Positions 6,048-19,195 of a stretch of 64,000 nucleotides of DNA are shown piece after piece. The notes below the pieces were generated by a model. It was not told the origin of the DNA and searched no databases. It worked only from the letters and a program-made list of their open reading frames with translations. Position 1 is the first letter of the stretch; every line of letters begins with the position of its first letter. A program made the translations under genes and the position numbers. Where the stretch lies: contig CACYJV010000002.1 in assembly GCA_902774815.1 (NCBI GenBank), positions 16,373 to 80,372 of the forward strand, read 5' to 3'. The stretch comes from an uncultured Prevotellaceae bacterium. GTDB taxonomy: Bacteria > Bacteroidota > Bacteroidia > Bacteroidales > Bacteroidaceae.

Positions 6048-6153
6048 TTGGGCCGTCGAGTCGTTCCCGTTGCTTCACTTCACCGTCAGCCAGACGGCTA
6101 TTGCCACAACGCTCGGCGTGACCTCGTGCATGGGGGCGTTGTAGAGACAACAA

Positions 6154-6199
6154 AAATCGGAAAGAAATGATGCCAATGACGGTCGTTTCTTTCCGATTT
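6154..6199. terminator. Bidirectional hairpin between convergent genes (3285..6047 and trpS)
   Basis: Perfect 14-bp stem aaatcggaaagaaa / tttctttccgattt with an 18-nt loop. Confidence 0.6.
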
Positions 6200-6268
6200 A
6201 ATAGCCTGGTGCCAAACACAACGGGCAGGCGCAGGAGGATAAAGCCTCATCCCGTCATGACGTTTTGC

Positions 6269-6297
6269 GCGGGCAGACACGGGAGTCTGCCCCTACG
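6269..6297. repeat. REP-like palindromic element, family 1 (GGGCAGAC-acggga-GTCTGCCC)
   Basis: gcgggcagacacgggagtctgcccctacg has an 8-bp stem and 6-nt loop. Identical to the two copies at 63010 and 63049. Confidence 0.8.
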
Positions 6298-6321
6298 CGT
6301 GGGCATGGCTCCTCCTCCCTT

Positions 6322-7407: not shown

Positions 7408-7496
7408 TTACGATTTATGGATTTACGATTTACGAATTTACGATTATACGATTTACGATTATACGATTTACGATTATACGATTATACGATTTACGG
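7408..7496. repeat. 8-nt microsatellite-like tract (T/A)TACGATT x about 11, abutting the trpS start codon
   Basis: ttacgatttatggatttacgatttacgaatttacgattatacgatttacgattatacgatttacgattatacgattatacgatttacgg. The sequence begins the nucleotide after ATG 7407. Confidence 0.85.
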
Positions 7497-7527
7497 ATGT
7501 CACAGTTGTTTCAACCACGAAGGGTAA

Positions 7528-7566
7528 TCATCAACTATAAACTATCAACTATAAACTATCAACTAC
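7528..7566. repeat. 8-nt tandem tract AACTAT(C/A)A x about 4.5
   Basis: tcatcaactataaactatcaactataaactatcaactac. It overlaps the stop codon of 7563..8324. Confidence 0.8.
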
Positions 7567-8324
7567 TCCTTCTCCATCTCAACACCGTTGTAGATGATGC
7601 ACTGTCGCTTGGGGTCGACCTTGCGGTGCTCGACCTCCTCGCTGCCCTCGAACTTGCAGTAGAGACGCTTCTTCTTGTAGAAGAAGGTACCGCGACTAAT
7701 CTGGCCGCCCGACTCCTCGGAGATCTTGTTACCACGAATGATGATGACCACATAGCCGTCGTCGAGATCGGTGCGCCAAGTGCCCTGAAGCCAGTCGGGA
7801 ACGGGCTCGGCTCCTTCGACGAGGAAGGGCTCGTAGTCCTTGACGATGGCCTCGTCGCCAAACTCGGTGAGCGACTCGTTGATGCCCTGCTCGATCATGG
7901 CCTGCTTGTAGCTGCGCTCACCGAGGCAGTTTCGCACGATGAACACGGAAACGATGAACAACAGGAGGAAGCCGATGAGACAACCGCGCATGCAGGAGCG
8001 CATGTTCATTGGGTTGTTCTGACGGTCGGCGGCAGACATGGGGCGACGACCGCCCTGACGCATCCCGAAGATGTCGGCGGGTCGGTCGGCCTGCGGAGTT
8101 CGTTCGGTTGATGCCGATGCGGCAGGCATCGTGTCTGTCTCGTCAAGGGCCTCAGCAGCAGGAGCAGACGGGGCCTCGGTCTCCTCTGGGGAAGGCTCAA
8201 GGGCGTCGCTGACCTGATACATGAAAGGCGTGCCGCAACGGGGGCACACGCAGGCTACCTCGTTGATGCCTTCATCGACGGGTGTATCGAACTTAAAGCG
8301 GCATTTGGGACACTTTACGATCAT
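7563..8324 (-). CDS. Zinc-ribbon membrane protein (unknown function)
   Basis: N-terminal CPKC...CPRC zinc ribbon, an acidic/Pro-rich linker, one TM helix (CLIGFLLLFIVSVFIV) and a roughly 120-aa C-terminal domain. Confidence 0.6.
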   Translation of the reverse strand: MIVKCPKCRFKFDTPVDEGINEVACVCPRCGTPFMYQVSDALEPSPEETEAPSAPAAEALDETDTMPAASASTERTPQADRPADIFGMRQGGRRPMSAADRQNNPMNMRSCMRGCLIGFLLLFIVSVFIVRNCLGERSYKQAMIEQGINESLTEFGDEAIVKDYEPFLVEGAEPVPDWLQGTWRTDLDDGYVVIIIRGNKISEESGGQISRGTFFYKKKRLYCKFEGSEEVEHRKVDPKRQCIIYNGVEMEKE

Positions 8325-8341
8325 CTATGGTTGTTTTAATT

Positions 8342-8430
8342 GTTGGCTGTTGGCCGTTAGCCGTTGGCTGTTGGCTGTTGGCACTGGGACAAATCAATTT
8401 TCAATTCTCAGTTTTCAATTTTCAATTTTG
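8342..8430. repeat. Two adjacent microsatellite-like tracts (GTTGGCT x about 6; CAATTTT(C) x about 4)
   Basis: gttggctgttggccgttagccgttggctgttggctgttggc (8342-8382) and caattttcaattctcagttttcaattttcaattttg (8395-8430). Both lie in the leader of 7563..8324. Confidence 0.8.
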
Positions 8431-8454
8431 CGAAGCAACCATGTTGCTTGCAAT

Positions 8455-9075
8455 TTATTCGAATCTAACAACTGCCTTACGCGTGACGCGCCAGTCGGCA
8501 CCTTCGCGGGCAACAGCACCTTCTTCTTCGGTGATGATGTGGCGGGGCTGCTGCGACGTTGAGCCGATGATGCGGCACACGGGCTTCACAAAGGCCGAGA
8601 CGCTGATGGTGGCCGTAGCAATGGCATCGGGCGTGTCGAGGAGGATGAACGTGCCGTTCTGTCCGTCGGTCGTCGTCAGCTGATAGATGCTCTTGCCAAT
8701 CTGCTCGTGCAAGGATGCCTGTTGGAAGAGTCCGTCGGCCGAAGGAGCGGGCAGATAGAATACGGTGGGCTCCACACGATGGGGCTCGGGACGAGCGGCA
8801 GGCTGGGGTGTCGTCGCCAACTGGACGTCGGCCGACATGTTGATGCCCACGGGCTGAACTGAAGTAGCAGACTCCTGTGTCTGCCCGTCGACAGGATGCT
8901 CAGCTGCGACCGAGTCAGCGTTGTTGCGCTGGGAGGCTACGGTTTCCTCTAACTCAGTTATGCGGGCCTCCATGCGCCGGCACTTGCGTTCCAGATGCTC
9001 AAGGCGCTGAAAGAGTTCCTGCAGGTCCTGCTTAGGCAGGTTCTCGTCGTCTCGTTTATTTCCAAATAGGGCCAT
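8455..9075 (-). CDS. Coiled-coil protein (last tightly linked gene of the candidate operon)
   Basis: 206 aa. N-terminal heptad-like QDLQELFQRLEHLERKCRRMEARITELEETV, a low-complexity linker, then a globular C-terminus. Its start lies 16 nt after the stop of the 1157-aa gene. Confidence 0.65.
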   Translation of the reverse strand: MALFGNKRDDENLPKQDLQELFQRLEHLERKCRRMEARITELEETVASQRNNADSVAAEHPVDGQTQESATSVQPVGINMSADVQLATTPQPAARPEPHRVEPTVFYLPAPSADGLFQQASLHEQIGKSIYQLTTTDGQNGTFILLDTPDAIATATISVSAFVKPVCRIIGSTSQQPRHIITEEEGAVAREGADWRVTRKAVVRFE

Positions 9076-9091
9076 TATTAGTTGAGAGTGT

Positions 9092-12000
9092 TTAGAGATT
9101 CTCTATGAGGTTGTTGCGGATGCTTCCGATGATGGGATAGAAGAACACCGTGTCCTCGATGGGGTCGCTGCCATTCTTCTCGGAAAGGTCCTTGGTGGCA
9201 AACTGCCAGCCGTTCAGCAGATGGTGCTTCAGGTCCTTGTTCACCAACTCGCGGAACTTCTGCAGCGACCTGTTGTCGACCAGGAAACGGTCGGCCACAT
9301 GGATGTCGTCGCAGAGTTGACTGAAGAAGTCGTTGTACTGGCGTACGGCCTCTACTATCTGGTCGAGCACTTCTCCGCGCTCCATATCGTCGTAGTTGAG
9401 CGTCTGCTTCTCGATCATCGAGTAGTTGGACTTCACGTCGGAATCGAAGCCATCGAGCATGTTGTTCAGCTCGTCGACACTCTTACAGCCTGTGGCATCG
9501 CGCACCTGCATCAAGGCACCTCGGCAGGTGATCTGCTTGGGTTCCTTGCGCTCCATGACGACCGAGAAGCCGTCGGCATCGTAGTGCTCGCCGTAGACGC
9601 GCTCGAAGACGGCCTGTGAGATGAGGTCGAGGTCGCGCTTGGTGCCCACAATGTCGAGAACCTTCGAACCTGTGCCGCTGAACATCACGGAGCGGGGTTT
9701 GTCCAGATGGCGCTGCTTCATCATGCGGGCCACATAATATAATAATGTGACATAGAAGTAAATGAAGACTATCTTGCGCTGCGGATCTTCGTTGAGCCGC
9801 TGGTTGTAGCTGAACACATCGTTGCCGCCGACCACCTTGTTGTTCTGCACGGAGAAGAGGAAGGCGTTGATGTCCTCGCTCTTACGCTTCGAGGTGATGT
9901 CGTCGAGGATGCCGCTCAGTTCGCCGTACTTCTCGTCGTCGCCATCGAAGAGGCGCTTGAAGTAGTCGACGTACTTCACGACCATCGGGTTGCTGTCGCC
10001 CTGAGGCACCTCGGAGAAGCCGTCGCCAAACAGCACGTTGGCGGCAAAGCGGAACGAGGTGAGGATTGTGGGCTGCTTGGCGCCCGACTCAAAGACCACT
10101 ACGTCGCTGGAGCCGCCGCCGATGTCGATGCTGGCCACATTGGATGCCGAGCCTCTGAACTGGCTGGACGACTTGTAGAAGTAGTAAGGGGCCACCGACT
10201 CAGGCATCTGGATGAGGTTGGTGTCGGTCACGGGGATGCCGAAGACCTCGGTGAACGTCTTGGTCCACATCTCGCCCATCTTGCGGACGTTGCCGACCTT
10301 CATGGCCAGCGGATAGAACCAGACGAGGCGCGTCTTCGTCAGGTCGCCATTCTCGAGCAGAACCTTTGCCCGCATGAGCAGCGCCAGCTCGGTGAGATAA
10401 GACTTCACGCGCTTCGATGTGGCCATCTCGGTGGACCACTTCAGATTGGGCACGATGCGGTTGCCGTAGCCGATACTCTCCTTTTCGTAGATGAACGGGA
10501 TGTTGGCATCGGCCAAAGCCACGATGGTGTCGACATTCTCGGCATCGAGGCTTTCGGGCTCGCTGATGACGGTGCGCTGGGGGAATCCATAGTCCTGACC
10601 AATGGTCTTGGGCAGGAACTCTTGCTTCAGGATGACGTCGTAGAGCGGCTGACCACCGTTATAGAGTGTTGCCAGCAGGCGTTGCGCTGCTGCTGAGTCG
10701 AGGCAGAGCGGGCCCGGCATGTCGTTTTCCTTCATGAACTCGAGGTGGGTGTTCGTCGTACCGAAGTCGACCGAGAAGGTGAAGGCGTCGTGACCGGGAG
10801 CATAGGTGGCCCAACGGGGACAAATCATGCCCTCGACAGCACGATTGCCGCGATCGTCGGTCAGCGTCACGCCGATGTAGTCGAAGTCGTTGGTAAGCTT
10901 ATAGTACTGCGAACCTACGTGCTTCTGGGCCTTCACGCTGCGCTGACGCATCATCACTTCGTCGCCTGTGAGCTGCCGCTGGTAGCCGTTCTGGTAGAAG
11001 GACAGCGACAACTTGTACTCCATCAGCATGCCGAGACCGCGATCGACCAACTGTACGGAATACTGATTGGCCAGCGGTGTGCGTACGAAGGGGAAAATGC
11101 TCAGGGCAAAGGGTACCGTGAGGAAGTGGCCGCGATTATTGGCATAGTCGTAGCGCAGGTCATTGGTCGTAGCGGCAACATAGTTGCGCTCGAGCGTGAT
11201 GAATTTGCCCTGTTTCTGCACGGGAATGCGCAGAATGGCGCGAACGGTCTCGGTGGATCCATTCTGCGTGTGGATGAGTTCGAACTTGGGCTTTCCGGCA
11301 ATGGTGCCCCAGAGGTCAGCCACGTTGAAATATTTGAAGAACATGGGCTTCAGCGGCAGCACGAAGTCGCAGCTGTCGGTGTCGCGCGAACCCTTTGCCA
11401 GATTGCCGTTGAAGAAGCAATCACGGTCGAGTGTATAGTCGAGTTTGATAAGCGTTGGCTGGAAGAAATCATCGTCGGTCAGCCAGGGGTACTCGTGACT
11501 GGTGGCGGGAAGCACTCGCTTCTCGGGCGGCAGCTGATAGTCCTGCGGAGTGATGACGGTAGCATCGGTCCAAGGCGAGGTGATGTACTTGAACGGATCG
11601 GTCTGCGGTGCGTTCAGGTGGTTCTGCAACACCAGCGGCAGGACGTCGCCACAATCCTGACGCGAAGGAACAATCATGAAGTCACTTTCCTGAATGGCCT
11701 TCTGCACGTCCTCGGCCCGGGCCTGATAGAACGGCACGCCGAGCGCTTGTATGCCTTCGTCCATCTTCGCGAACGTCGTGTCGAGGAACGTCTTTGCGCG
11801 CTCAACGCTCTCGTAGTCGTAGGCGGCGGGATTGCCCACTTCCTTCAGGATCTCGTTCTGCAGCATCGGCGGCAGCAGGGGCAGCGTGCCAATGAGGTAG
11901 CTGTTTACTTCGCTGCAGCACTTCTTCAGCTCGGGATAAGCCGTAAACAAGGCGAAGATGTACTTCACGAACTTCTGATCACGCATATGGAGAGGACGCC

Positions 12001-12565
12001 AGAGGTCGAACAGGTTCACGTTCTGCTCGACGGGAATGGGGAAGCGGCCCGGCTGCGCATTGGGCGTAGCCATAAAGAGAGTGACGGGCGACGTCGAGCC
12101 AATCACCTGATTGCCGTAGACGAGGAAATAGAGGCGGTCCATACGGTCGAAGTTGAAGGCCTCCTTGTCCTGATCGAGAAACATCTCGATGGTCTCACCG
12201 AGCAGCTTGTGTTGGGGCGAATCCTTCAGCATCTGGAGCTGCGTGTCGCGGTTCCACTCGACGATGCGTAGCTGGTTGCGATGTTCGGCATAGTTGAAGA
12301 ACAGCTGAGCCACGTCGAGGGCATTGGAAACAAGCTTCTCGTCCATTGCCTCACCCTGCAGTCGGTCGTGCATAGCCAGACGCTTGAAGGCGTTCTTGAC
12401 GAGGTCCATCTGTGCAAACGGCGAGGGAATGGCCGTACGGGGCTGCTGAGAGAGTCCGCCATTAGGGTCGTCGATCATCTCGATTTCGTCGGCATTGTAC
12501 TGACTCGTCAAAGGAATCCATCCCTCACCCGTTGTCTTGTTGTTGTAGGATAGTATCTTGCTCAT
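9092..12565 (-). CDS. Giant protein: about 590-aa unknown N-terminal region fused to an actin/Hsp70-fold (ASKHA) ATPase-like domain
   Basis: Phosphate-1-like VDFGTTNT (nt 10748-10768), phosphate-2-like DIGGGSSD (nt 10103-10126) and adenosine-like MFSGTGSK (nt 9662-9682), in the canonical order and spacing for the ASKHA superfamily. Confidence 0.8.
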   Translation of the reverse strand: MSKILSYNNKTTGEGWIPLTSQYNADEIEMIDDPNGGLSQQPRTAIPSPFAQMDLVKNAFKRLAMHDRLQGEAMDEKLVSNALDVAQLFFNYAEHRNQLRIVEWNRDTQLQMLKDSPQHKLLGETIEMFLDQDKEAFNFDRMDRLYFLVYGNQVIGSTSPVTLFMATPNAQPGRFPIPVEQNVNLFDLWRPLHMRDQKFVKYIFALFTAYPELKKCCSEVNSYLIGTLPLLPPMLQNEILKEVGNPAAYDYESVERAKTFLDTTFAKMDEGIQALGVPFYQARAEDVQKAIQESDFMIVPSRQDCGDVLPLVLQNHLNAPQTDPFKYITSPWTDATVITPQDYQLPPEKRVLPATSHEYPWLTDDDFFQPTLIKLDYTLDRDCFFNGNLAKGSRDTDSCDFVLPLKPMFFKYFNVADLWGTIAGKPKFELIHTQNGSTETVRAILRIPVQKQGKFITLERNYVAATTNDLRYDYANNRGHFLTVPFALSIFPFVRTPLANQYSVQLVDRGLGMLMEYKLSLSFYQNGYQRQLTGDEVMMRQRSVKAQKHVGSQYYKLTNDFDYIGVTLTDDRGNRAVEGMICPRWATYAPGHDAFTFSVDFGTTNTHLEFMKENDMPGPLCLDSAAAQRLLATLYNGGQPLYDVILKQEFLPKTIGQDYGFPQRTVISEPESLDAENVDTIVALADANIPFIYEKESIGYGNRIVPNLKWSTEMATSKRVKSYLTELALLMRAKVLLENGDLTKTRLVWFYPLAMKVGNVRKMGEMWTKTFTEVFGIPVTDTNLIQMPESVAPYYFYKSSSQFRGSASNVASIDIGGGSSDVVVFESGAKQPTILTSFRFAANVLFGDGFSEVPQGDSNPMVVKYVDYFKRLFDGDDEKYGELSGILDDITSKRKSEDINAFLFSVQNNKVVGGNDVFSYNQRLNEDPQRKIVFIYFYVTLLYYVARMMKQRHLDKPRSVMFSGTGSKVLDIVGTKRDLDLISQAVFERVYGEHYDADGFSVVMERKEPKQITCRGALMQVRDATGCKSVDELNNMLDGFDSDVKSNYSMIEKQTLNYDDMERGEVLDQIVEAVRQYNDFFSQLCDDIHVADRFLVDNRSLQKFRELVNKDLKHHLLNGWQFATKDLSEKNGSDPIEDTVFFYPIIGSIRNNLIENL

Positions 12566-12595
12566 TACGTTTCAATTTACAATTCACAATTATTT

Positions 12596-14140
12596 CTACA
12601 CCACGCCCACATACTTTTCGTCAAGCAGTTTGTCGAGCGTCTCGTCAAGCAGATCGAGCAACTTCAGCGCTGTGCGATCGGTGCCGTACTTCTGTGTCTT
12701 CATGGCCTGCTGCGAAGCTTTGTTTAGCGAAGAGAGCACACTCTTGTAGTCGATGGTCGACTTCAGGAATCCCGTCTTCGGCGCAATGTCGGTCAGACAG
12801 TCGCTGAGCTTGGTGGTATCGAGGTTGAAGGGCACGAAGCTGCGCTGGTTCTGACGTAGTTCACGAAGCCACTGGCGATAGCTGACGAAGAAGTCGCTGG
12901 TCAGCGTGTTGAAGAACGACGTCGAGAGGAACGCGTTCGAAATCTCGGGCTTGTCTTGCGTATAGCCGCGCCCGATGTCCTGACGTAGCTGATTGGTGAT
13001 GTACATATAGGCCAGATGGAACTTTGCCATCTGACGATTGACGAGTGCCCGCGTGCTGACGCCAAAGTCTTTCAGCGAGAGCGTCTGCTTGTCCTGAGCC
13101 AGACCGAACTCCTTGTAGATGGGGTTCACGGCATTGCCGTCCTGTGTCTGCAGCTGCTCGTCGGGGATGGCGAGGAAGTCGAGCACGGAAAGGGCTCCGA
13201 CAAACTCAACAAGGTGAGCGTCGTTGCGCTGACCGTTGCCGCCCGGGTCGTTGAAGTAGGGGTTTGAGGGCACCTGATCGCCCAGATAGTAGCAGGCGTT
13301 AATCTTCGACAACGGCAGGTCGACGCCATTCTGGCGCAGGCCGGTGAGGTTGTCGTGATAATAAAACAAGGCCGACTTGGTCTTCGAGATGAAGTCGCCA
13401 CGCGAGATAGGGCTGTTGTCGTCCTGCTGCACGTTGAAGTAGGGCAATACGGTCAGTGCACCGATACGGGCATCGCGCAGGTCGCCACGATTGTTGATCT
13501 GTGCATTGCGGGCAGCATTGCGAATGTTCTTCACGATAATGGGGTAGCCTGCAGCACCTGTTCCACCGAAGATGCTCGACACGACGAAGACGCGGTCGGA
13601 CTTCTGGAACACGTTGGAGAACTGGCGGAATTCCTCAGAGTCCTTGAACTGGTTAAGGGCAACACTGCCGATGTTGGGCGAACCGACGAAGCCGATGTCC
13701 ATCTTCGTGTTCAGCTGATAGTCGCTGAACATCATGGAACACAGGGCCTGATTACCCGTATCAAGGGTTGAGTAGTTGATGAAGTCCTGAAACTTCTTCG
13801 ACTCAATGGCACCCATGTTGAAGAGAAACGTATCGCTGAGTTGTGAGCCGTTGGGCAGAATGTCGGCAAGGCTGCTGATCTTCACCGAGAAGAAGCCCTT
13901 CTTCACATCCACCTGCTCACCGTAGAGTTGTGTCCGAATCTGTTTATACCAGCGCATGAGGTTGTCCGTGCGCTTCAGGTCTTCATTGGCCTTGTGGGGA
14001 TCAACGACGATAGGAATAATCTCGAGCGGCATGGGTTGCCCCTGTTCATCAACGGGATGAACACCTGCAGCACACTGCATGATGAGTGGCCGCATCACAC
14101 GCGAGCCTGTTCCGCCTACAAGAAATAGAAATAATCGCAT
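12596..14140 (-). CDS. Tubulin/FtsZ-like GTPase candidate
   Basis: 514 aa. N-terminal LFLVGGTGSRV (T1-loop-like, nt 14102-14116) and SSIFGGTGAAGYP (nt 13547-13567), which resembles the tubulin signature GGGTG(S/T)G. No Walker A lysine. Confidence 0.6.
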   Translation of the reverse strand: MRLFLFLVGGTGSRVMRPLIMQCAAGVHPVDEQGQPMPLEIIPIVVDPHKANEDLKRTDNLMRWYKQIRTQLYGEQVDVKKGFFSVKISSLADILPNGSQLSDTFLFNMGAIESKKFQDFINYSTLDTGNQALCSMMFSDYQLNTKMDIGFVGSPNIGSVALNQFKDSEEFRQFSNVFQKSDRVFVVSSIFGGTGAAGYPIIVKNIRNAARNAQINNRGDLRDARIGALTVLPYFNVQQDDNSPISRGDFISKTKSALFYYHDNLTGLRQNGVDLPLSKINACYYLGDQVPSNPYFNDPGGNGQRNDAHLVEFVGALSVLDFLAIPDEQLQTQDGNAVNPIYKEFGLAQDKQTLSLKDFGVSTRALVNRQMAKFHLAYMYITNQLRQDIGRGYTQDKPEISNAFLSTSFFNTLTSDFFVSYRQWLRELRQNQRSFVPFNLDTTKLSDCLTDIAPKTGFLKSTIDYKSVLSSLNKASQQAMKTQKYGTDRTALKLLDLLDETLDKLLDEKYVGVV

Positions 14141-14189
14141 TTTCTGTTATGTTGTTTTACTCTGTTGCTTTGTGATGATTGTGGAGCTA

Positions 14190-14633
14190 CTACTCAGGAA
14201 TCGGCGTATGACGGCAGTTTGACGACCACCAGCGCATAGCGAACGAAGCCACCACGAAGAGTACGGCCTCGACGGCGAGGTCGACGACGCAGAATCCACC
14301 GAGCTGGGCGCTGAAGTCATAGCCCTCGGCCGTGAAGGCATTATTGCAGATGACGAATGAGGTAACTGGGGCAGCAACGCTGGCCACACCGAGTACGATA
14401 AGCCAGTGGAACCACCGCGAGAAGCTCACGGAGTTGACGACGTAATAATAGATAGCGGCCAAGCCCCAGGCGATGAGCACCGTCACCAGTGCTACGACGA
14501 AGTAGAGGTTTTGGTTGTACATCTCGTTCGAGAATTGGCGTTCGAAGTAGAGTGCCTCGAAAATCTTCGTGTTCAACACAAGGAACAGCAGCGAAATCAC
14601 TGCACCTGCAATCAGTAGAATTGAATTCTTCAT
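14190..14633 (-). CDS. Small integral membrane protein (about 4 TM helices)
   Basis: 147 aa with four hydrophobic segments. Gaps of 29 and 49 nt to the flanking operon genes. Confidence 0.7.
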   Translation of the reverse strand: MKNSILLIAGAVISLLFLVLNTKIFEALYFERQFSNEMYNQNLYFVVALVTVLIAWGLAAIYYYVVNSVSFSRWFHWLIVLGVASVAAPVTSFVICNNAFTAEGYDFSAQLGGFCVVDLAVEAVLFVVASFAMRWWSSNCRHTPIPE

Positions 14634-14662
14634 TTGTTTATTGTTTCAAAGGAGGTTTTTAC

Positions 14663-16165
14663 TTATGGTTTCAACTCAAGCTCAAGCTCGAAATAGTAGG
14701 GGTCGCCCTTCGAGTGCTTGCGGTAACTGTCGTAGATGCCCTGCAGGAGATACTTCAGACCGAAGGTGGTCTGGGCAAACGACGACGAAGTGAGGTTGGT
14801 GTCGTCGTCGCTCGACGATGCCTCGACCCATGCGGGCAGGTGGTTCATGAGCTTGATCTCCACTTCCTGACGATGCTTAATACCCTCGCTTTCGAGGACA
14901 AACAGGTGGGTTGCCTTTCCGAGACGCTTGCGTTCGGCAGGCGAAACTTCCTTCTGAGCGATGGGGCGAATCTCCTTGATCACGACGGGATCATCGCTCT
15001 CAACACGATAGTTCTCCACATTGGTCAGGTATTGCTCGTCGATGAGCATGCCGCTCAAGTCGACAGCCAGCGCCAGACGCAAGTCACCTGCATCACGATC
15101 AACCTCGACATTCTCGATGTCGCGAATCTGGTCGCCCTGCCCATGAACTGGGCGGAAGCGACCGCGTATCTGCTCGTTGTCGAGCAGCAGCGAGTAGTAA
15201 GGTTTATAGACACCGTCGGTCCCGAAAAGGTACATATCCTCATAGCCGCGCAGGTCGCTGAAACGGCTGAAGGGTACGTAGCTTTCGTCGCGAGTCAGCC
15301 GGGCCATGTTGCGGTTGGACCCTACAACGACGATGTAGTAGGGACGACGGCCGTTGTACTGCTGACCGCTGGTGGAGTTGTATACATAATAGGCACCATT
15401 GTAGGAGCCCTGCATCTTTACGACAAGCAGTCCCTTCTCCTTAACCTGACTCTTGAAAACGGCATTCGTCATACCCTGCGCCTCAGAGAAAACCTTCTGC
15501 GGGTTGACGCCGACCATTTGCTTGGTAGAGTAGATCATATCCGTCACGAGGATGGAGAGTTCGTCCTCACCCGTCTTGTCGAGCAGTTGCTTGAAGATGG
15601 CTTCGAAGTCGGTCGACGAGGCATCGCCGATGCCCTTGGTGGACTCGAAGATATTGGGATCGCTGATGAACTGCGAATAACCTTTCGGGTAGGCATTGAT
15701 TTCGGAGTTGACCACATAGATGCGGTTGTCGTCGCCAGTACCAGGCAGCTTGTTGAGCATGCCCACAATGGCGGCCTTGAACGAACCGTCACCACCTGCA
15801 GCATCGTAAGGAACCATCGAACCGGAGCGCTCCAAGTAGAAGTTTACGGCAAGCGTACGCCGGCCGGCCTGAATGTCAATCTTCTTAGGCGGTCGGCGAC
15901 CTTCAAAGAAGTCTTCGATGTACTCCTTCACCCCGTCGACATCGAGCTGGCCGTCTTTATAGAAGTCTGTGAAATGTGCCTTCTGGCCGTCGAGGTACTC
16001 AACGATCTGCTCCCACTCTTGTGCGTCAATCACTTCATCGCGATCGGCCACATCGAGCAACAGCCGATTCAGTTCTTTCTTCTCGCCGCCACCACAAGCA
16101 GTGATCAGCACCATTCCTATCAGGGCCAAAATAGTTGCTTTCAGCCTCATCGTTTTCATCTTCAT
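14663..16165 (-). CDS. vWA-domain lipoprotein
   Basis: Lipoprotein signal with lipobox LITAC (Cys24). vWA-like core NFYLERSGSM (MIDAS-like E-R-S-G-S, nt 15818-15832) ... GDASSTDF ... LSILVTDMIYS. Confidence 0.7.
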   Translation of the reverse strand: MKMKTMRLKATILALIGMVLITACGGGEKKELNRLLLDVADRDEVIDAQEWEQIVEYLDGQKAHFTDFYKDGQLDVDGVKEYIEDFFEGRRPPKKIDIQAGRRTLAVNFYLERSGSMVPYDAAGGDGSFKAAIVGMLNKLPGTGDDNRIYVVNSEINAYPKGYSQFISDPNIFESTKGIGDASSTDFEAIFKQLLDKTGEDELSILVTDMIYSTKQMVGVNPQKVFSEAQGMTNAVFKSQVKEKGLLVVKMQGSYNGAYYVYNSTSGQQYNGRRPYYIVVVGSNRNMARLTRDESYVPFSRFSDLRGYEDMYLFGTDGVYKPYYSLLLDNEQIRGRFRPVHGQGDQIRDIENVEVDRDAGDLRLALAVDLSGMLIDEQYLTNVENYRVESDDPVVIKEIRPIAQKEVSPAERKRLGKATHLFVLESEGIKHRQEVEIKLMNHLPAWVEASSSDDDTNLTSSSFAQTTFGLKYLLQGIYDSYRKHSKGDPYYFELELELKP

Positions 16166-16259
16166 TTGTTGTTTGAGTGTTTATGTTCTGACGTCTCGCA
16201 CGGCAGGAAAGTTGCAGCAAAAACAGCTTTCGCGTGCGCACCTACGAATTAAAAACGTG

Positions 16260-16267
16260 CAAAATTA
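16260..16267 (-). promoter_or_regulatory. Candidate -7 box TAATTTTG upstream of the vWA/tubulin-like/ASKHA operon
   Basis: Plus-strand caaaatta. It lies about 95 nt upstream of ATG 16165. No clear -33 element. Confidence 0.35.
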
Positions 16268-16479
16268 CAAATAAAAATCCGAAAAACGGCCAATCGTGTG
16301 GCATTATTCAGAGTTTTTAAGATTTCAAAAACGATGCGGCAGAGACCTCTTTACCTGATTATTTCAAACTATTACACCCCACAACGGCGCAATAATTGGC
16401 AGTTGATGCGGCACCAAGGCATAAGACTTCTCAATAATCCTATGCTATTGAAGTTCATTGACACATCTCGACTATCAAG

Positions 16480-16625
16480 AACGTTGTGCTTTAGCATAAA
16501 GAAAGCATAACTTTTTCATTACAAAAGCATTGCGTTTTCAGTACAAAAGCAATGCCTTAACACCCCTAAAGCAATGCTTTGCTGACCCTAAAAGCAGTGC
16601 TTTAGACAATACAAAGCGTTGATAT
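16480..16625. repeat. 22-bp-phased degenerate tandem array (family AAAGCAnTG), copy A, about 6 units
   Basis: Core starts at 16502, 16524, 16546, 16568, 16591 and 16613. Units such as acaaaagcattgcg / acaaaagcaatgcc / ctaaagcaatgctt. Confidence 0.8.
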
Positions 16626-16710
16626 ATCAAACGAAAAGAATATCTATCTCTCTACTAAAAAAAACAACTATTTGAGAAGAAAAGTCCTACTGCACATAAA
16701 ACATCACAAA

Positions 16711-16756
16711 ACAAAAAGGTCGCCCCCTACTCCATTCGCGGAGCATGGGGGCAACC
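16711..16756 (-). terminator. Rho-independent terminator after the TonB-dependent receptor gene
   Basis: On the minus strand, ggttgccccc...gggggcgacc (10-bp stem, 1 mismatch) is followed by tttttgttttg. Confidence 0.6.
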
Positions 16757-16807
16757 ACCTTCATCAATCAATTAAATTATGCTTTGTTTTTGTGTTGGAT
16801 GAAGCCG

Positions 16808-19195
16808 TTAGAAGTGCAGGCGAAGGTCGACTCCCACCTGCAGAGGGTTGCCAAGTTGGCCGAAATACTTTGTCTCGCCAGTTGCTGACGATGCGACGGC
16901 AAACGTATTGTACTTCGAATCGGTGAGGTTGCGTCCCCATACCGACAGCACCACGGGACCGCAATCGAGGTCGAGATGTGCTCCCAATGTGGCATAGATG
17001 CCCTGAGAATAGGTGTTGGCCTCGTCCCAGTATATCTTGCCTTGCCCAGCTACGTTCAATCCGAACGTGAGCGAACGCAACGACAACTTACTGGCTGCAT
17101 TGTGGCTGAAGTCAAACCGATAGTCGGCATTGGCCGCAAAGGTGTGTTCCGGCACGAAAGGCACCCGTTTGTCCTTATAGTCAAAGGCGGTTGTTTCAAG
17201 TCCGTTGGCAATGCTGTCGATGTATTCTTTGAAGACAGCCCGCGTATAGCTGTAGCTGGCTCCCCACATCAGGTGGTCGTTCAGCGCCTGACCGCGAAGG
17301 CTGGCCTCAACGCCACACGAGTAGCTCTTGCCGGCATTCACCATCATTCGGCCAAAACCATAGTTGCCTGCCATAACGGAAAGTTGCTGATTGGTGACTT
17401 GCATGTAGAAGCCGGCTAGATCCATCTGCAATGTCTTGTTGAAGAGGTTCAGATGTGCACCAAACTCGTAGTTCCACGAGGTCTCAGGCTTGAAAGCGAT
17501 TGTCTCGCGAATGTCGTTGTAAACCTGTTCGTCGTGTTCAATCACCATCGCCCCACGTACTGACTGAGCACTCGACTGCAGTTCGGTCTGCAGGATGTCG
17601 CTGAACATCTGCATGTTGAACCCACCAGCGCGATAGCCCTTTGTCAACGTGGCGTAGAGGTTGCTGCCACCACCCAGCTTGTATGTCAGTCCGAGCTTCG
17701 GAAGCAGCTGGTCGAAGTGGTCGTGATCGTGATGAGCCAGAGCCGAAGCAACGGAAGCATCAACGTGAACGCCCATGACGTCCTCACTCAACGTGGCCAA
17801 TGCCGACGTACGATAGTCAATGGCTGCATAGCTGTAGTCGTAGCGCAGGCCGAGGGTTGCCATCAGGCGATTGGTCAGTTCGATATCGCTCTGGTGGAAC
17901 ACAGCCAGATTGGTCATCGGTGTGTGGAAAAGTCCAGGTATAGTGGCTATCTGCATATCGACTTTGCAACCTCCCATACGTGCAATCATAGCTGCGGCAG
18001 CCTCTTCACCCATACGCTTGGCCATCGAATTGAGCATGCCGTAGTAGGCATAGTCGGTAATCGTCTTCGAGAGGAATGCGTTCATCTCTGGATCGAAGTA
18101 GACGGGAGCATTGGTTTTCATCCATTGGAAGGAGCCAAAGGCACCCAGCGTCCAGTGCCAGCGTGACGGGCGATTGCCCTTGAACACGAACTCCTGCGTG
18201 AAGGCATTCTGGAACTGGCGCTCCTCAAGGTGCATATAGTCCTGAGGCAGGTAGTCGATGTCCATCATCATGTAGTCTTTCAGGAACTGATAGCTGGCTG
18301 TGTAGTTGAAATCGAATGCATTGGCGCGGAAACCGATGTTCAGCGCAGTATTCAGCAGATTGCGACGATAATTGCCTTGACGATTGGTGGCAGGGTCGGC
18401 AGTGGTATTGTCGGCAAGCGACATCAGTCCATAGGGGAAACCATTCTGGCGAACATACTGGTAGTCGGCCACATAGTCGAACGAAAGGCGATCGGTGGGA
18501 CGCCAAATGAGTCGCATCTTGCCACCAGCTTCGTTGATGCGGTCGGCTTTTTCGCCCGTCGTCTTGTTTTCAAAGAAGCCGTTCTGGCCGTTGTAGAAAC
18601 CTGCCAGCGAGAAGACAAACTGCTCGTTTACCTTATTGTAATGGGCCACTTCTGCATTTCGATACATTGCTGTTCCAAAGCCCAGTTGTACGTCGGTGCC
18701 TTGATAGTTCATGGGGTTGCGCGAGAACATGCGCAGCAGGCCTCCTTCGGTATTCTGTCCGTAGAGGGTGCCTTGCGGTCCACGCAGCACATCGATGCGA
18801 TCCAACTGATAGGTATGCACGTTGAACGCGCTCTTGCTGACCAGTGGCATTCCGTCTGTGTAGACGCCGACAGCCGGGCTGTTCACGCGTGAGCCGATAC
18901 CACGAATATACATTGACGAAGTGTAACGCGAACCATAGTTGGGCATAGTGAATGCGGGCACGAAAGTCGACAGGTCGCGCAGGTCGCGGATGCCCAGCTG
19001 TTCGATTTCAGCCGTCGAGAACACAGAGGAACTCATGGGTTGCTGGCGCAACAGGAAGCTCTCCTTAGGCTGACTGACCACAACCACCTCGTCGAGGTCA
19101 TGAACGCGGGACGAGTCGGCCACCGCATCAATCCCCTCTGCCATAAGTGGAAGTGTGGCGACAAGCACGATGCTTGTCAGGATGATTTTTTTCAT
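16808..19195 (-). CDS. TonB-dependent outer-membrane receptor
   Basis: Signal peptide MKKIILTSIVLVATLPLMA (internal Met preferred over ORF start 19303). Plug region DLDEVVVVSQPKE...IRGIGSR, a long beta-barrel, and a C-terminal LRLHF ending in Phe. Confidence 0.85.
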   Translation of the reverse strand: MKKIILTSIVLVATLPLMAEGIDAVADSSRVHDLDEVVVVSQPKESFLLRQQPMSSSVFSTAEIEQLGIRDLRDLSTFVPAFTMPNYGSRYTSSMYIRGIGSRVNSPAVGVYTDGMPLVSKSAFNVHTYQLDRIDVLRGPQGTLYGQNTEGGLLRMFSRNPMNYQGTDVQLGFGTAMYRNAEVAHYNKVNEQFVFSLAGFYNGQNGFFENKTTGEKADRINEAGGKMRLIWRPTDRLSFDYVADYQYVRQNGFPYGLMSLADNTTADPATNRQGNYRRNLLNTALNIGFRANAFDFNYTASYQFLKDYMMMDIDYLPQDYMHLEERQFQNAFTQEFVFKGNRPSRWHWTLGAFGSFQWMKTNAPVYFDPEMNAFLSKTITDYAYYGMLNSMAKRMGEEAAAAMIARMGGCKVDMQIATIPGLFHTPMTNLAVFHQSDIELTNRLMATLGLRYDYSYAAIDYRTSALATLSEDVMGVHVDASVASALAHHDHDHFDQLLPKLGLTYKLGGGSNLYATLTKGYRAGGFNMQMFSDILQTELQSSAQSVRGAMVIEHDEQVYNDIRETIAFKPETSWNYEFGAHLNLFNKTLQMDLAGFYMQVTNQQLSVMAGNYGFGRMMVNAGKSYSCGVEASLRGQALNDHLMWGASYSYTRAVFKEYIDSIANGLETTAFDYKDKRVPFVPEHTFAANADYRFDFSHNAASKLSLRSLTFGLNVAGQGKIYWDEANTYSQGIYATLGAHLDLDCGPVVLSVWGRNLTDSKYNTFAVASSATGETKYFGQLGNPLQVGVDLRLHF

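What the first reader, a model, noticed from the sequence alone, without database searches (positions are those of the whole stretch)
8455..16267. Orphan operon pairing a tubulin/FtsZ-like GTPase with a giant actin/Hsp70-fold ATPase, a vWA lipoprotein and a 4-TM protein
Five minus-strand genes run head to tail with gaps of 29, 49, 30 and 16 nt:
- a vWA lipoprotein (14663-16165)
- a 4-TM protein (14190-14633)
- a 514-aa protein with tubulin-type glycine loops (12596-14140)
- a 1157-aa protein with the three ASKHA nucleotide-binding motifs (9092-12565)
- a 206-aa coiled-coil protein (8455-9075)

The flanking genes (a TonB-dependent receptor and trpS) are unrelated. None of the five has the size or context of the housekeeping ftsZ, ftsA, mreB or dnaK. 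I cannot map this set onto any characterised machine: a predicted GTPase of the tubulin fold, a predicted ATPase of the actin fold, a periplasm/outer-membrane-facing vWA adaptor and an inner-membrane protein.

I recall that comparative genomics (Makarova and Koonin 2010, FtsZ-like families) predicted divergent FtsZ-like genes in operons with membrane-associated partners. Whether this locus belongs to those families is untested here. Possible roles are a filament-forming trans-envelope or membrane-remodelling device, or an NTP-dependent conflict system. Both are inference.
Basis: partly seen in the sequence, partly recalled or inferred. Interest (0 to 1): 0.9.

Follow-up and report, generated by a model that had tools for sequence, protein, structure and literature searches.

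The report
Tubulin-like/actin-like envelope operon, stator-less variant
This Prevotella locus is a real, strongly conserved six-gene operon pairing a divergent tubulin/FtsZ-type GTPase with a giant actin/Hsp70-fold ATPase and membrane partners; it is a reduced version of a widespread, uncharacterised system that elsewhere also carries a Zorya-like proton-driven motor and often rides on mobile elements.

Summary
The five ORFs exist at the stated coordinates with the stated gaps. A sixth gene (7563-8324, a zinc-ribbon bitopic protein) also belongs to the block.

- **1157-aa protein:** ASKHA fold confirmed. Foldseek gives 530 PDB hits at E<=1e-3; the listed ones are Hsp70-NBD, MreB and ParM.
- **514-aa protein:** belongs to the FtsZ/tubulin superfamily, nearest Pfam Tubulin_2 (Makarova-Koonin "FtsZl1"). 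The support comes from sequence profiles. Fold search is inconclusive.
- **Lipoprotein:** the "vWA" label rests only on a MIDAS-like motif. No profile supports it.

The gene order lipoprotein, 4-TM, tubulin-like, giant ASKHA, coiled-coil is conserved in 80 Prevotellaceae genomes, 80 diverse metagenome loci, cyanobacterial plasmids and integrative mobilizable elements.

Outside Prevotellaceae the module usually continues with a ZorA-like/ZorB-like stator pair and variable secreted proteases or a nuclease. Prevotellaceae lack these genes and have the zinc-ribbon protein instead.

No characterised system matches. The closest known are the predicted FtsZl1-vWA-MotB operons (2010).

The most likely role is an envelope-linked, NTP-driven assembly system of the conflict/surveillance type (about 45%). 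A constitutive membrane-remodelling machine is the main rival (about 30%).

Verdict: new variant of a known, uncharacterised kind. Interest 0.7.

The parts
16260..16267 (-). Bacteroidetes-type -7 promoter motif TAATTTTG, ~95 nt upstream of the first gene
   Evidence: Pattern TAnnTTTG. It is the only minus-strand match between 6011 and 16259/16267. The consensus itself is from general knowledge of Bacteroidetes promoters. Function not tested.
14663..16165 (-). 500-aa lipoprotein with a MIDAS-like E112-x-S114-x-S116-M ... T185-D186 ... D209 arrangement; possible vWA-type domain
   Evidence: Lipobox and invariant Cys24. The Gloeothece homolog has a canonical VDGSGSM. No VWA profile hit in 0 of 37 members, and no PDB sequence hit. 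The fold was not predicted.
14190..14633 (-). 147-aa four-TM inner-membrane protein
   Evidence: Hydropathy. Conserved position between the lipoprotein and tubulin-like genes in Prevotellaceae, metagenome and cyanobacterial loci.
12596..14140 (-). 514-aa cytoplasmic FtsZ/tubulin-superfamily GTPase-like protein (Tubulin_2-related, short form) with a C-terminal helical domain
   Evidence: Pfam Tubulin_2 E 2.8e-4 and Tubulin E 6.8e-4, both sub-threshold. 62 of 72 and 57 of 72 diverse homologs hit those models. A homolog passes the Tubulin_2 cut-off. With the family profile, 26 of 28 PDB hits, including the top 26, are FtsZ/tubulin. AF2 pLDDT 80, pTM 0.85. Foldseek inconclusive.
9092..12565 (-). 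1157-aa cytoplasmic protein: N-terminal ~590 aa of unknown fold (helical plus beta-rich) and a C-terminal ASKHA (actin/Hsp70-fold) ATPase domain from ~595 to ~1020 and beyond
   Evidence: AF2 pLDDT 80. Foldseek: 530 PDB hits at E<=1e-3; listed hits are Hsp70 NBD, MreB and ParM. Pfam per member: FtsA 33 of 36, EutA 17, Ppx-GppA 14, MreB 9. Catalytic motifs invariant.
8455..9075 (-). 206-aa cytoplasmic protein: short N-terminal coiled coil, linker, conserved C-terminal globular domain. Equivalent to the cytoplasmic part of a ~400-aa bitopic membrane protein in other lineages.
7563..8324 (-). 253-aa bitopic protein: N-terminal zinc ribbon (CPKC...CPRC), disordered linker, one TM helix (~113-135), C-terminal ~115-aa domain. 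A Prevotellaceae-specific sixth gene.
   Evidence: Weak Pfam Zn_ribbon_4 hit. TM helix. Follows the coiled-coil gene in nearly all Prevotellaceae loci. Found in only 16 of 80 metagenome loci, nearly all with Prevotella-type operons.

Best explanation
The locus is a six-gene operon encoding an envelope-spanning, nucleotide-driven assembly module.

Shown:
- A periplasm-facing lipoprotein, a 4-TM inner-membrane protein and a bitopic zinc-ribbon protein sit in the envelope.
- Three cytoplasmic proteins accompany them: a short Tubulin_2/FtsZl1-related GTPase-like protein with conserved T1, T3, T4 and T5-type loops, a giant protein with an ASKHA ATPase domain whose phosphate-1, phosphate-2 and adenosine motifs are intact, and a coiled-coil adaptor.
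- The locus is the Prevotellaceae variant of a much wider family. The full form of that family adds a ZorA-like/ZorB-like proton-channel stator with a long helical tail, a membrane-anchored version of the coiled-coil protein, and variable secreted hydrolases. The full form is repeatedly found next to integrases or on mobilizable plasmids.

Inferred mechanism:
- An event at the envelope is sensed by the lipoprotein (metal-site ligand binding) and, in the full form, by the peptidoglycan-anchored stator.
- The signal crosses the inner membrane through the small membrane proteins.
- It triggers GTP-dependent oligomerisation of the tubulin-like protein at the membrane.
- The giant actin-fold ATPase acts as its membrane-proximal partner or remodeller, in an FtsZ/FtsA-like way.

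Inferred role: an accessory envelope-surveillance or conflict system (for example against phage or other invaders). The Prevotellaceae form is a chromosomally fixed derivative that has lost the stator and hydrolases.

Rough odds: the identity of the parts is about 0.85 secure, the assembly mechanism about 0.5, and the conflict role about 0.45.
For: - Operon and synteny: (median junctions of -8 to 11 nt in distant loci).
- ASKHA fold and conserved catalytic motifs.
- Tubulin-superfamily membership.
- Topology of the membrane parts.
- ZorB-like partner: PADLOC ZorB1 E 7e-11 over nearly the full length.
- ZorA-like partner: PADLOC ZorA best E 6e-12. PDB hits 8vvn (MotA/TolQ/ExbB, E 3e-6) and ZorA 8qyk (E 0.008). 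Three TM helices plus a ~300-aa helical tail.
- Each of the two stator genes is present in 25 of the 27 distant loci that have enough downstream sequence.
- Variable downstream Trypsin_2, retropepsin and SNase lipoproteins.
- Mobility: mobilizable cyanobacterial plasmids. An integrase, MobC and relaxase lie directly upstream in L165-168, and divergent integrases lie upstream in L158, L170 and L172.
- Literature: related FtsZl1-vWA-MotB operons were predicted to be membrane-associated (PMC2875224). Tubulin/vWA neighbourhoods were placed among predicted NTP-dependent conflict systems (PMC7159879).
Against: - Nothing here has an experimental basis.
- The Prevotella operon itself has no stator, no hydrolase, and no integrase or tRNA nearby. 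It sits between trpS and a TonB-dependent receptor.
- Within Prevotellaceae it behaves like a vertically inherited core operon. The tubulin-like protein is as conserved as TrpS (92-95% against 89-96% in the closest loci) and stays at 72% or more across genera. That is unusual for defence genes.
- None of the six proteins matches any PADLOC model meaningfully.
- The tubulin fold is not confirmed by Foldseek, and no T7/synergy loop could be identified, so polymerisation is uncertain.
- The vWA/MIDAS reading of the lipoprotein has no profile or structural support.
- The taxonomic assignment of most metagenome loci was not verified.
Confidence: 0.45

Rival explanations
1. A constitutive envelope or membrane-remodelling machine, such as vesicle biogenesis, envelope maintenance or an auxiliary division-related function. 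A second FtsZ-like/FtsA-like pair would be tethered to the membrane and coupled to a periplasmic lipoprotein, as Makarova and Koonin proposed for FtsZl1 operons. With the stator, the full form would resemble a Tol-Pal-type energised envelope system.
For: - Conservation comparable to TrpS, and strict six-gene synteny across Prevotella, Hoylesella, Segatella and Hallella.
- No recognisable toxic effector in the Prevotella version.
- Chromosomal context without mobile or defence genes.
- No meaningful PADLOC match for the core proteins.
- The tubulin-fold plus actin-fold pairing mirrors FtsZ/FtsA.
- The published inference for the related operons (PMC2875224).
Against: - The family is carried by mobilizable plasmids and integrase-flanked elements.
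- Its peripheral genes vary by lineage.
- It is associated with secreted proteases and a nuclease, and with Zorya-type rather than Tol- or Mot-type stator proteins. These are hallmarks of accessory or conflict systems, not housekeeping ones.
Confidence: 0.3
2. A trans-envelope surface apparatus for adhesion, secretion or force transmission. It would be analogous in logic to the Myxococcus Agl-Glt focal-adhesion machine, which combines a TolQR-type motor, actin-fold MreB, a GTPase, a coiled-coil protein and a vWA outer-membrane lipoprotein.
For: The component-by-component analogy: a stator in the full form, an actin-fold ATPase, a GTPase-like protein, a coiled-coil protein and a MIDAS-like lipoprotein. 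The paper on CglB as a vWA outer-membrane lipoprotein adhesin surfaced (PMC9946355). The other Agl-Glt details are from my own knowledge.
Against: - There is no homology to Glt or Agl components; the resemblance is analogy only.
- The Prevotella version lacks the motor.
- No outer-membrane channel or secreted substrate is conserved in the core.
- Outer-membrane localisation of the lipoprotein is not established.
Confidence: 0.1
3. The Prevotella operon is a decaying remnant of the full system that became non-functional after losing the stator and effectors.
For: Loss of the ZorA-like and ZorB-like genes, the hydrolases and the membrane anchor of the coiled-coil protein. Unrelated genes are inserted inside the operon in some close relatives.
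Against: - All six ORFs are intact in about 80 species.
- The nucleotide-binding motifs are invariant.
- Identity stays at 72-95% across genera. Remnants under no selection would not remain this conserved.
Confidence: 0.04
4. A member of the DO-GTPase/GAP1 'tubulin plus HSP70' conflict systems of Kaur et al. 2020.
For: That paper describes GTPase-centred systems that can include tubulin and HSP70-family proteins and vWA proteins.
Against: - No Walker-A/P-loop motif occurs in any of the six proteins, so the defining DO-GTPase is absent.
- No separate gene for a GAP1-type protein is present. Sequence similarity to GAP1 was not tested.
- In that paper the tubulin and HSP70 themes are non-overlapping and confined to Firmicutes and Actinobacteria.
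Confidence: 0.02

Closest known systems
FtsZl1 (FtsZ-like 1) operons of Makarova & Koonin 2010; Pfam Tubulin_2 (PF13809)
   Same: - The divergent tubulin/FtsZ N-domain has recognisable T1 and T4 loops but no alignable T6-H7, as here.
- It sits in an operon with a (putative) vWA protein, membrane proteins and, in cyanobacteria, a ~524-549-aa 'B7' protein followed by a ~215-230-aa MotB-type protein. That parallels the ZorA-like and ZorB-like pair of the full form here.
- 62 of 72 family members hit Tubulin_2, and one homolog passes its threshold.
- One FtsZl1 neighbourhood (Magnetospirillum) even has a 1626-aa Hsp70-like gene.
   Different: - FtsZl1 proteins are ~900-1100 aa with an extended coiled coil and a C-terminal helical domain. 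This one is 514 aa with a ~150-aa helical end and no long coiled coil.
- The window protein itself scores below the Tubulin_2 cut-off (20.7 against 27 bits).
- No Prevotella protein is in their list.
- The obligatory giant ASKHA partner, the 4-TM protein and the zinc-ribbon protein are not part of their description.
- FtsZl1 operons are themselves uncharacterised.
Zorya anti-phage system (ZorAB stator with soluble effectors)
   Same: In the full form of the family, the two genes after the coiled-coil gene best match ZorA and ZorB models. The ZorA-like protein has the long helical tail typical of ZorA. The system is also carried on mobile elements.
   Different: - The window locus has no ZorA-like or ZorB-like gene.
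- No ZorC, D, E, F or G equivalents were detected.
- In the Zorya paper I searched, three subtypes are recognised, and searches of it for 'ATPase', 'GTPase' and related terms found nothing.
FtsZ/FtsA pair of the divisome
   Same: A tubulin-superfamily protein is encoded next to an actin-fold ATPase. FtsA is the Pfam family hit by the most giant-protein homologs, 33 of 36. hhalign to E. coli FtsA gives 84% probability over the phosphate-2 region.
   Different: - The sizes differ: 514 and 1157 aa here against 383 and 420 aa.
- The gene order and context differ, and there is no dcw cluster.
- All matches are sub-threshold and limited to motif regions.
- There is no FtsZ C-terminal domain and no identifiable T7 loop.
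SrfB (srfABC 'virulence factor' operon)
   Same: SrfB is a large (~990-aa) protein family that 9 of 36 giant-protein homologs hit weakly, at the ASKHA phosphate-2 region.
   Different: The best E-value is only 0.002 and the match is restricted to ~25 residues. No SrfA or SrfC counterparts were looked for or seen. This is a lead, not a relationship.

Membership tests
FtsZ/tubulin superfamily | Glycine-rich T1 loop after strand 1 and T4 signature loop (GGGTG[ST]G) after strand 4 | tested here: met
   GGTGSR (9-14) and GGTGAAG (192-198). G9, G10, G12, S189, G192, G193 and G195 are invariant in 139 homologs. In the AF2 model each motif directly follows a strand and opens a helix.
FtsZ/tubulin superfamily | Significant profile match to Tubulin/FtsZ models | tested here: inconclusive
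   - The window protein is sub-threshold: Tubulin_2 20.7 against 27 bits, Tubulin 20.4 against 33 bits.
- 62 of 72 and 57 of 72 homologs hit these models (best E 3.3e-10 and 3.7e-6).
- The Gloeothece homolog passes the Tubulin_2 cut-off at 40.8 bits and matches this family's HMM at E 6e-56.
- With the A1 profile, 26 of 28 PDB hits are FtsZ/tubulin, with best E 0.006.
FtsZ/tubulin superfamily | Tubulin/FtsZ three-dimensional fold | tested here: inconclusive
   The model is confident (pLDDT 80, pTM 0.85), but there is no PDB hit at E<=1e-3. Generic Rossmann-type folds rank first, and TubZ 2xka is rank 11 (E 0.08, TM 0.22-0.26). The best BFVD hit is a phage tubulin (E 0.004, probability 0.87).
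FtsZ/tubulin superfamily | T7 'synergy' loop (NxDxxD/E) for polymerisation-dependent GTP hydrolysis; GTP binding and polymerisation | tested here: not met
   No alignable T7 loop. A different conserved block, G300..Q304-x-N306-x-A308-H309..E312, occupies the following region. Biochemistry cannot be tested with these tools.
FtsZl1 (Makarova & Koonin 2010) | N-terminal FtsZ-like domain followed by an extended coiled coil and an alpha-helical C-terminal domain (~1000 aa) | tested here: not met
   The protein is 514 aa. The C-terminal ~150 aa form short helices, not an extended coiled coil. The family lengths are ~470-520 aa.
FtsZl1 (Makarova & Koonin 2010) | Operon with a vWA-domain protein and often OmpA/MotB-type and membrane proteins | tested here: inconclusive
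   The adjacent lipoprotein has only a MIDAS-like motif. A MotB/ZorB-like gene is present in the full form but absent from the window.
ASKHA (actin/Hsp70/sugar-kinase) superfamily | Phosphate-1, phosphate-2 and adenosine motifs in order | tested here: met
   D600-x-G602-T603-x-N605, D814-I-G-G-G-x-x-D821 and S963-G964-x-G966 are invariant or nearly so in 36 homologs at 27-40% identity.
ASKHA (actin/Hsp70/sugar-kinase) superfamily | Two-lobed actin-like fold | tested here: met
   Foldseek gives 530 PDB hits at E<=1e-3. The top hits are Ssz1/Hsp70 NBD, MreB and ParM at E ~1e-7, probability 1.00, ~480 aligned columns.
Hsp70 / FtsA / MreB / ParM (specific ASKHA families) | Family-level profile match above the curated threshold, with the family's architecture | tested here: not met
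   All hits are below the gathering scores: FtsA best 3.6e-5, EutA 1.6e-5, MreB 8e-4. A ~590-aa N-terminal extension has no counterpart. No PDB sequence hit reaches E<=1e-4.
von Willebrand A (vWA) domain | MIDAS motif DxSxS...T...D at canonical spacing | tested here: inconclusive
   E112-R-S114-G-S116-M, T185 (+73) and D209 (+97). The first residue is Glu in the window and metagenome homologs but Asp (VDGSGSM) in the Gloeothece homolog. The canonical spacing is from my own knowledge of integrin I-domains.
von Willebrand A (vWA) domain | Profile or fold match to VWA families | tested here: not met
   No VWA Pfam hit for the window protein, for 37 diverse homologs even at E<=1 or for the cyanobacterial homologs. 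No vWA structure appears among the PDB profile hits.
Zorya defence system | ZorA (MotA-like with a long tail) plus ZorB (MotB-like) core | tested here: not met
   Absent from the window and from all 80 Prevotellaceae loci. ZorA-like and ZorB-like genes are each present in 25 of 27 informative distant loci.
Zorya defence system | Subtype effectors ZorC/D, ZorE or ZorF/G | tested here: not met
   No PADLOC Zor effector hit for the window proteins or for distant homologs.
DO-GTPase/GAP1 systems (Kaur et al. 2020) | TRAFAC P-loop DO-GTPase plus GAP1 protein | tested here: not met
   No Walker A motif in any of the six proteins. GAP1 similarity was not tested.

The most novel reading that the evidence does not exclude
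The family is a previously undescribed class of envelope-spanning system. In it a proton-driven ZorAB-type stator is mechanically or allosterically coupled to a tubulin-superfamily GTPase and a giant actin-fold ATPase. This would be a 'cytoskeletal' immune or trans-envelope machine in which tubulin-like and actin-like proteins co-assemble at the membrane on a signal from the envelope. Prevotellaceae would have fixed a stator-less core of this system in the chromosome for a new, possibly physiological, role.
Probability: 0.35. Interest if true: 0.9.

Novelty: new variant of a known kind. Interest (0 to 1): 0.7.

Why it matters
If the proposed mechanism holds, this would be a dedicated bacterial system outside cell division and plasmid segregation in which a tubulin-fold and an actin-fold NTPase are obligate operon partners wired to the cell envelope.

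It would give the long-orphaned Tubulin_2/FtsZl1 group, predicted in 2010 and still set aside as uncharacterised in a 2023 survey, a testable functional context. It would also extend the range of partners used by Zorya-type stators.

The system is abundant in Prevotella and its relatives, which are dominant gut, rumen and oral bacteria. It occurs on mobile elements in other gut Bacteroidales, so it may bear on phage resistance or envelope biology in the microbiome.

The contrast between the full version and the stator-less version is a natural experiment for working out which parts do what.

Tried and rejected
- Full-length Foldseek of the 514-aa model against PDB gave no significant hit, and against BFVD only a weak phage tubulin hit. 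I could not search the N-domain alone because coordinates are not exposed.
- hhalign of the family against a single E. coli FtsZ aligned T3-T4 but at only 0.9% probability. This is uninformative because the template was a single sequence.
- vWA tests of the lipoprotein were all negative: Pfam on the window protein, on 37 diverse homologs and on the cyanobacterial homologs, plus PDB profile searches.
- PADLOC, PHROGs and NCBIfam gave nothing meaningful on the six proteins.
- The SrfB lead for the giant protein was weak and motif-only, and I dropped it as a relationship.
- DO-GTPase/GAP1 membership is rejected because there is no P-loop.
- The ~505-528-aa proteins downstream in the cyanobacterial plasmid loci are not detectably ZorA-like.
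- Searching the 514-aa protein against the phage collection by tblastn found no match.
- Rfam on 6000-17000 found no RNA family. No tRNA was found in the window.
- The sigma-70 promoter and terminator scan is uninformative for Bacteroidota.
- The TAnnTTTG motif upstream of distant loci was only modestly enriched (9 of 38 against an 11% background), so it did not settle their taxonomy.
- Literature searches found no characterised equivalent.
- The annotated Prevotella replicon hit carried no annotation.

Full report
**1. Observation**

The gaps recomputed from those coordinates are 29, 49, 30 and 16 nt.

- The first protein has a signal peptide ending in a lipobox (LITA-C24). That cysteine is invariant in its family.
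- The second has four hydrophobic helices.
- The three following proteins have none, so they are cytoplasmic.
- A Bacteroidetes-type -7 promoter motif (TAATTTTG) lies at 16260-16267 on the minus strand. There is no other match on that strand until after trpS. This fits a single transcription unit but does not prove one.
- A sixth minus-strand ORF (7563-8324), 130 nt downstream of the coiled-coil gene, was not in the finding. It encodes an N-terminal CxxC...CxxC zinc ribbon, a linker, one TM helix and a ~115-aa C-terminal domain.

**2. Conservation**

A scan of one genome per GTDB species found 178 species with a close relative of the 514-aa protein. The best 80 loci are all Prevotellaceae (Prevotella, Hoylesella, Segatella, Hallella), plus a few evidently mis-binned contigs.

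Mapping the window's proteins onto them shows the order lipoprotein, 4-TM, tubulin-like, giant, coiled-coil, zinc-ribbon in essentially every locus. trpS and the TonB-dependent receptor are neighbours only in the closest relatives. So the block is a unit and has six genes.

Identity ranges are:

| Protein | Identity to window |
|---|---|
| Tubulin-like | 72-95% |
| Giant | 61-87% |
| 4-TM | 43-91% |
| Lipoprotein | 42-88% |
| Coiled-coil | 32-66% |
| Zinc-ribbon | 25-49% |

In the closest loci the tubulin-like protein (92-95%) is as conserved as TrpS (89-96%).

**3. The 1157-aa protein**

- Pfam gives only weak hits (EutA, Alp7A) at residues ~806-840.
- An AlphaFold2 model built on 71 homologs has mean pLDDT 80.
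- Foldseek returns 530 PDB matches at E<=1e-3. The 50 listed are all Hsp70/Ssz1 nucleotide-binding domains, MreB or ParM, at probability 1.00 over ~480 columns.
- Across 36 homologs at 27-40% identity, the phosphate-1 (D600-x-G-T-x-N), phosphate-2 (D814-I-G-G-G-x-x-D821) and adenosine (S963-G964-x-G966) motifs are invariant or nearly so.
- 33 of 36 members hit Pfam FtsA, 17 EutA, 14 Ppx-GppA, 9 MreB, 9 SrfB and 4 MutL. All are sub-threshold.
- hhalign to E. coli FtsA gives 84% probability on the phosphate-2 segment.

The ASKHA fold is therefore confirmed, and the enzyme is probably active. It belongs to no specific known ASKHA family. Its N-terminal ~590 residues (helical, then beta-rich at 428-581) have no detectable relatives.

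**4. The 514-aa protein**

Evidence for tubulin/FtsZ-superfamily membership:
- Sub-threshold Pfam hits to Tubulin_2 (E 2.8e-4) and Tubulin (E 6.8e-4), and to TIGR ftsZ (E 0.009).
- With a family profile, 26 of the 28 PDB sequence hits, including the top 26, are FtsZ or tubulin chains (best E 0.006). The alignment covers FtsZ residues ~30-116, which are T3 and T4.
- An exhaustive search finds 1,723 clusters at 50% identity with E<=1e-3 and 474 with E<=1e-30. The 150 listed are nearly all ~470-520 aa.
- Of 72 diverse members scanned individually, 62 hit Tubulin_2 (best E 3.3e-10) and 57 hit Tubulin (best E 3.7e-6).
- The columns invariant over 139 members fall on G9-G10-x-G12-x-R14 (T1-like), G150/G153/G158 (T3-like GFxGxPxxG), S189/G192-G193/G195 (T4) and P233-Y234 (T5-like PYF).
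- A Gloeothece plasmid homolog is annotated by RefSeq as a tubulin-like domain protein. It passes the Tubulin_2 gathering score at 40.8 bits. It also matches this family's HMM at E 6e-56 over nearly its whole length.

Evidence against, or missing:
- The confident AF2 model (pLDDT 80, pTM 0.85) has no significant PDB neighbour. Rossmann-type enzymes rank first, and TubZ is rank 11 at E 0.08.
- The best viral hit is a phage tubulin at only E 0.004.
- No T7 loop can be aligned. A different conserved block (G300..Q304-N306-A308-H309..E312) remains unexplained.

Makarova and Koonin noted the same absence of T6-H7 in FtsZl1. A 2023 survey equates the Tubulin_2 domain with their FtsZ-like group and sets that group aside as a divergent outgroup.

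I conclude that the protein is a member of the superfamily and is nearest to Tubulin_2/FtsZl1. It is a distinct short subfamily, because it lacks the ~1000-aa coiled-coil architecture that defines FtsZl1. No Prevotella protein is in their list.

**5. The lipoprotein**

No VWA model matches the window protein, any of 37 diverse homologs even at E<=1, or the cyanobacterial homologs. PDB profile searches find no vWA structure.

What exists is a motif pattern. A hydrophobic strand is followed by E112-x-S114-G-S116-M, then G-x-x-x-x-T185-D, and then a hydrophobic strand ending in T-D209. The spacings are +73 and +97. From my knowledge of integrin I-domains, these match the DxSxS...T...D spacing of a MIDAS site.

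In the Gloeothece homolog the first element is the canonical VDGSGSM. The vWA reading is therefore plausible but unproven.

**6. The wider family**

A metagenome scan seeded with a marine member returned 80 diverse loci from marine, freshwater, soil, sludge and gut samples.

- HMMs for the six Prevotella proteins recover the same order everywhere: tubulin-like 80 of 80, giant 73, lipoprotein 70, 4-TM 68, coiled-coil 49 and zinc-ribbon 16. Nearly all the zinc-ribbon hits are in loci with Prevotella-type operons.
- Median junctions are -8 to 11 nt.
- In the 56 non-Prevotella-like loci the coiled-coil partner is a ~400-aa bitopic protein: periplasmic domain, TM helix, coiled coil, C-terminal domain. 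The Prevotella 206-aa protein corresponds only to its cytoplasmic part.

Two further genes follow in the distant loci:
- A ~500-aa protein with three TM helices and a ~300-aa helical tail. Members hit PADLOC ZorA models (best E 6e-12). The family profile hits the MotA/TolQ/ExbB structure 8vvn (E 3e-6) and ZorA structures.
- A ~210-aa protein that matches ZorB over nearly its whole length (E 7e-11) and weakly matches MotB_plug.

Among the 27 distant loci with at least 4.5 kb after the giant gene, 25 have the ZorA-like gene and 25 the ZorB-like gene. 13 have a Trypsin_2 lipoprotein, and 6 have a retropepsin-like protease plus an SNase nuclease. None of these genes occurs in the window or in the 80 Prevotellaceae loci.

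**7. Mobility**

- Mobilizable plasmids of Gloeothece and Picosynechococcus encode homologs of the lipoprotein, small 4-TM protein, tubulin-like protein and giant protein in the same arrangement, with different downstream genes.
- Eleven contigs in the viral collection carry the module. Most of those long enough also carry the stator pair.
- In L165-168 the module starts 333 nt after a site-specific integrase, which is preceded by a MobC-like gene and a relaxase. I verified these against annotated plasmid records. This indicates an integrative mobilizable element rather than a phage; the flank has only weak similarity to unannotated 'Bacteriophage sp.' records.
- Divergent integrases also sit directly upstream of the lipoprotein gene in L158, L170 and L172.
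- The window has no integrase, relaxase or tRNA.

**8. Comparison with what is known**

- Makarova and Koonin's neighbourhood tables list vWA, then FtsZl1 (~1085-1097 aa), then 'B7' (524-549 aa), then COG1360 MotB (215-230 aa) in cyanobacteria. They also list a 1626-aa DnaK-like gene in the Magnetospirillum FtsZl1 neighbourhood. So the link between tubulin-like, vWA-like and MotB-like genes is a published prediction, interpreted there as membrane remodelling.
- Kaur et al. 2020 placed tubulin/vWA and HSP70 neighbourhoods in DO-GTPase/GAP1 conflict systems. Those systems are defined by a P-loop GTPase, which is absent here (no Walker A motif). Their tubulin and HSP70 themes do not overlap.
- The Zorya paper I searched recognises three subtypes, and searches of it for ATPase, GTPase and related terms found nothing. 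A survey of MotAB diversity has no occurrence of 'Bacteroid', 'tubulin' or 'FtsZ'.
- I found no experimental work on any member.

**9. Mechanism (inference)**

The parts list implies a complex that spans the envelope. A periplasmic lipoprotein with a likely metal-dependent binding site sits outside. Small inner-membrane adaptors cross the membrane. Inside are a GTPase-like and an ATPase whose nucleotide sites are under strong purifying selection.

The simplest reading has two steps. An envelope event is relayed inward. There it controls GTP-dependent self-assembly of the tubulin-like protein at the membrane, with the giant actin-fold ATPase as co-assembling partner or remodeller. In the full form the peptidoglycan-anchored, proton-driven stator and its long tail feed into the same cytoplasmic assembly, and secreted hydrolases act as outputs.

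A conflict or surveillance role is favoured at about 45% by three things: the Zorya-type stator, the variable hydrolases and lineage-specific periphery, and repeated carriage on plasmids and integrative elements.

The Prevotella version argues for a domesticated or constitutive envelope function, at about 30%. It is chromosomal, lacks the stator and hydrolases, appears vertically inherited, and is as conserved as an aminoacyl-tRNA synthetase.

A surface-apparatus analogy (about 10%) and decay (under 5%) are less likely.

**10. Verdict**

The locus is not an orphan. It is the stator-less Prevotellaceae variant of a broad, uncharacterised family related to the FtsZl1 operons.

I did not find any of the following described in the sources I searched: the obligatory pairing with a giant ASKHA ATPase, the link to ZorAB-like stators, or the mobile-element carriage.

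Novelty: new variant of a known (predicted, uncharacterised) kind. Interest: 0.7.

Noticed in passing
L005:6290-9349 (also a ~2.3-kb gap in L003 between the lipoprotein and 4-TM genes): In close relatives a 1019-aa secreted protein is inserted between the lipoprotein and 4-TM genes. Its first ~17 residues (MKNSILLITGAVLSLF) duplicate the N-terminus of the 4-TM protein, suggesting an insertion that copied the 5' end of the downstream gene.
   Followed up: partly
L005:16046-19513 (similar gap in L004): A 758-aa outer-membrane beta-barrel-like ORF and a small nucleotidyltransferase-like/HEPN(DUF86)-like pair are inserted between the coiled-coil and zinc-ribbon genes. The labels are by eye only. 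The zinc-ribbon gene may therefore be less tightly coupled to the rest of the operon.
   Followed up: no
L043, L058, L078, L079: Contigs from bins labelled Eggerthellaceae, Oscillospiraceae, Lachnospiraceae and Akkermansia muciniphila carry the Prevotella-type operon at 72-79% identity. This is most likely binning contamination in those assemblies.
   Followed up: no
window 3285-6047 (+): A 920-aa secreted protein with two tandem dockerin-like repeats (DVNEDGAITIADVTALVNVILGK / DINEDGSITIADVTALVNIILGK), seen in the translation. Not analysed.
   Followed up: no
window 12415-12438 (-), residues 44-51 of the 1157-aa protein: A near-invariant T-x-I-P-S-P-F-A motif lies at the end of the low-confidence N-terminal 47 residues. 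It could be a docking peptide for a partner.
   Followed up: no
window 13205-13243 (-), residues 300-312 of the 514-aa protein: A conserved block G300..Q304-x-N306-x-A308-H309..E312 (G300 and E312 invariant, the others near-invariant) has no counterpart in FtsZ/tubulin alignments. It sits where a T7-type catalytic loop might be expected.
   Followed up: partly
L165:2312-5865; L158:6492-7730; L170:4406-5608; L172:3-386: Site-specific integrases lie immediately upstream of the full module in several unrelated loci; in L165 a MobC-like gene and a relaxase accompany the integrase. The IMG/VR 'viral' label for these contigs probably reflects an integrative mobilizable element.
   Followed up: yes
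whole window: The motif TAnnTTTG occurs 31 times against 18.8 expected, and no shuffle reached 31. This fits a Bacteroidota genome that uses this -7 promoter element. No tRNA genes were found in the 64 kb.
   Followed up: no
Literature: PMC2875224, supplementary file 5: In Magnetospirillum magneticum a 1626-aa 'DnaK (HSP70)' gene (amb2961) follows two vWA genes in the FtsZl1 neighbourhood table. This is a possible independent case of a giant Hsp70-fold protein linked to a tubulin-like gene.
   Followed up: no
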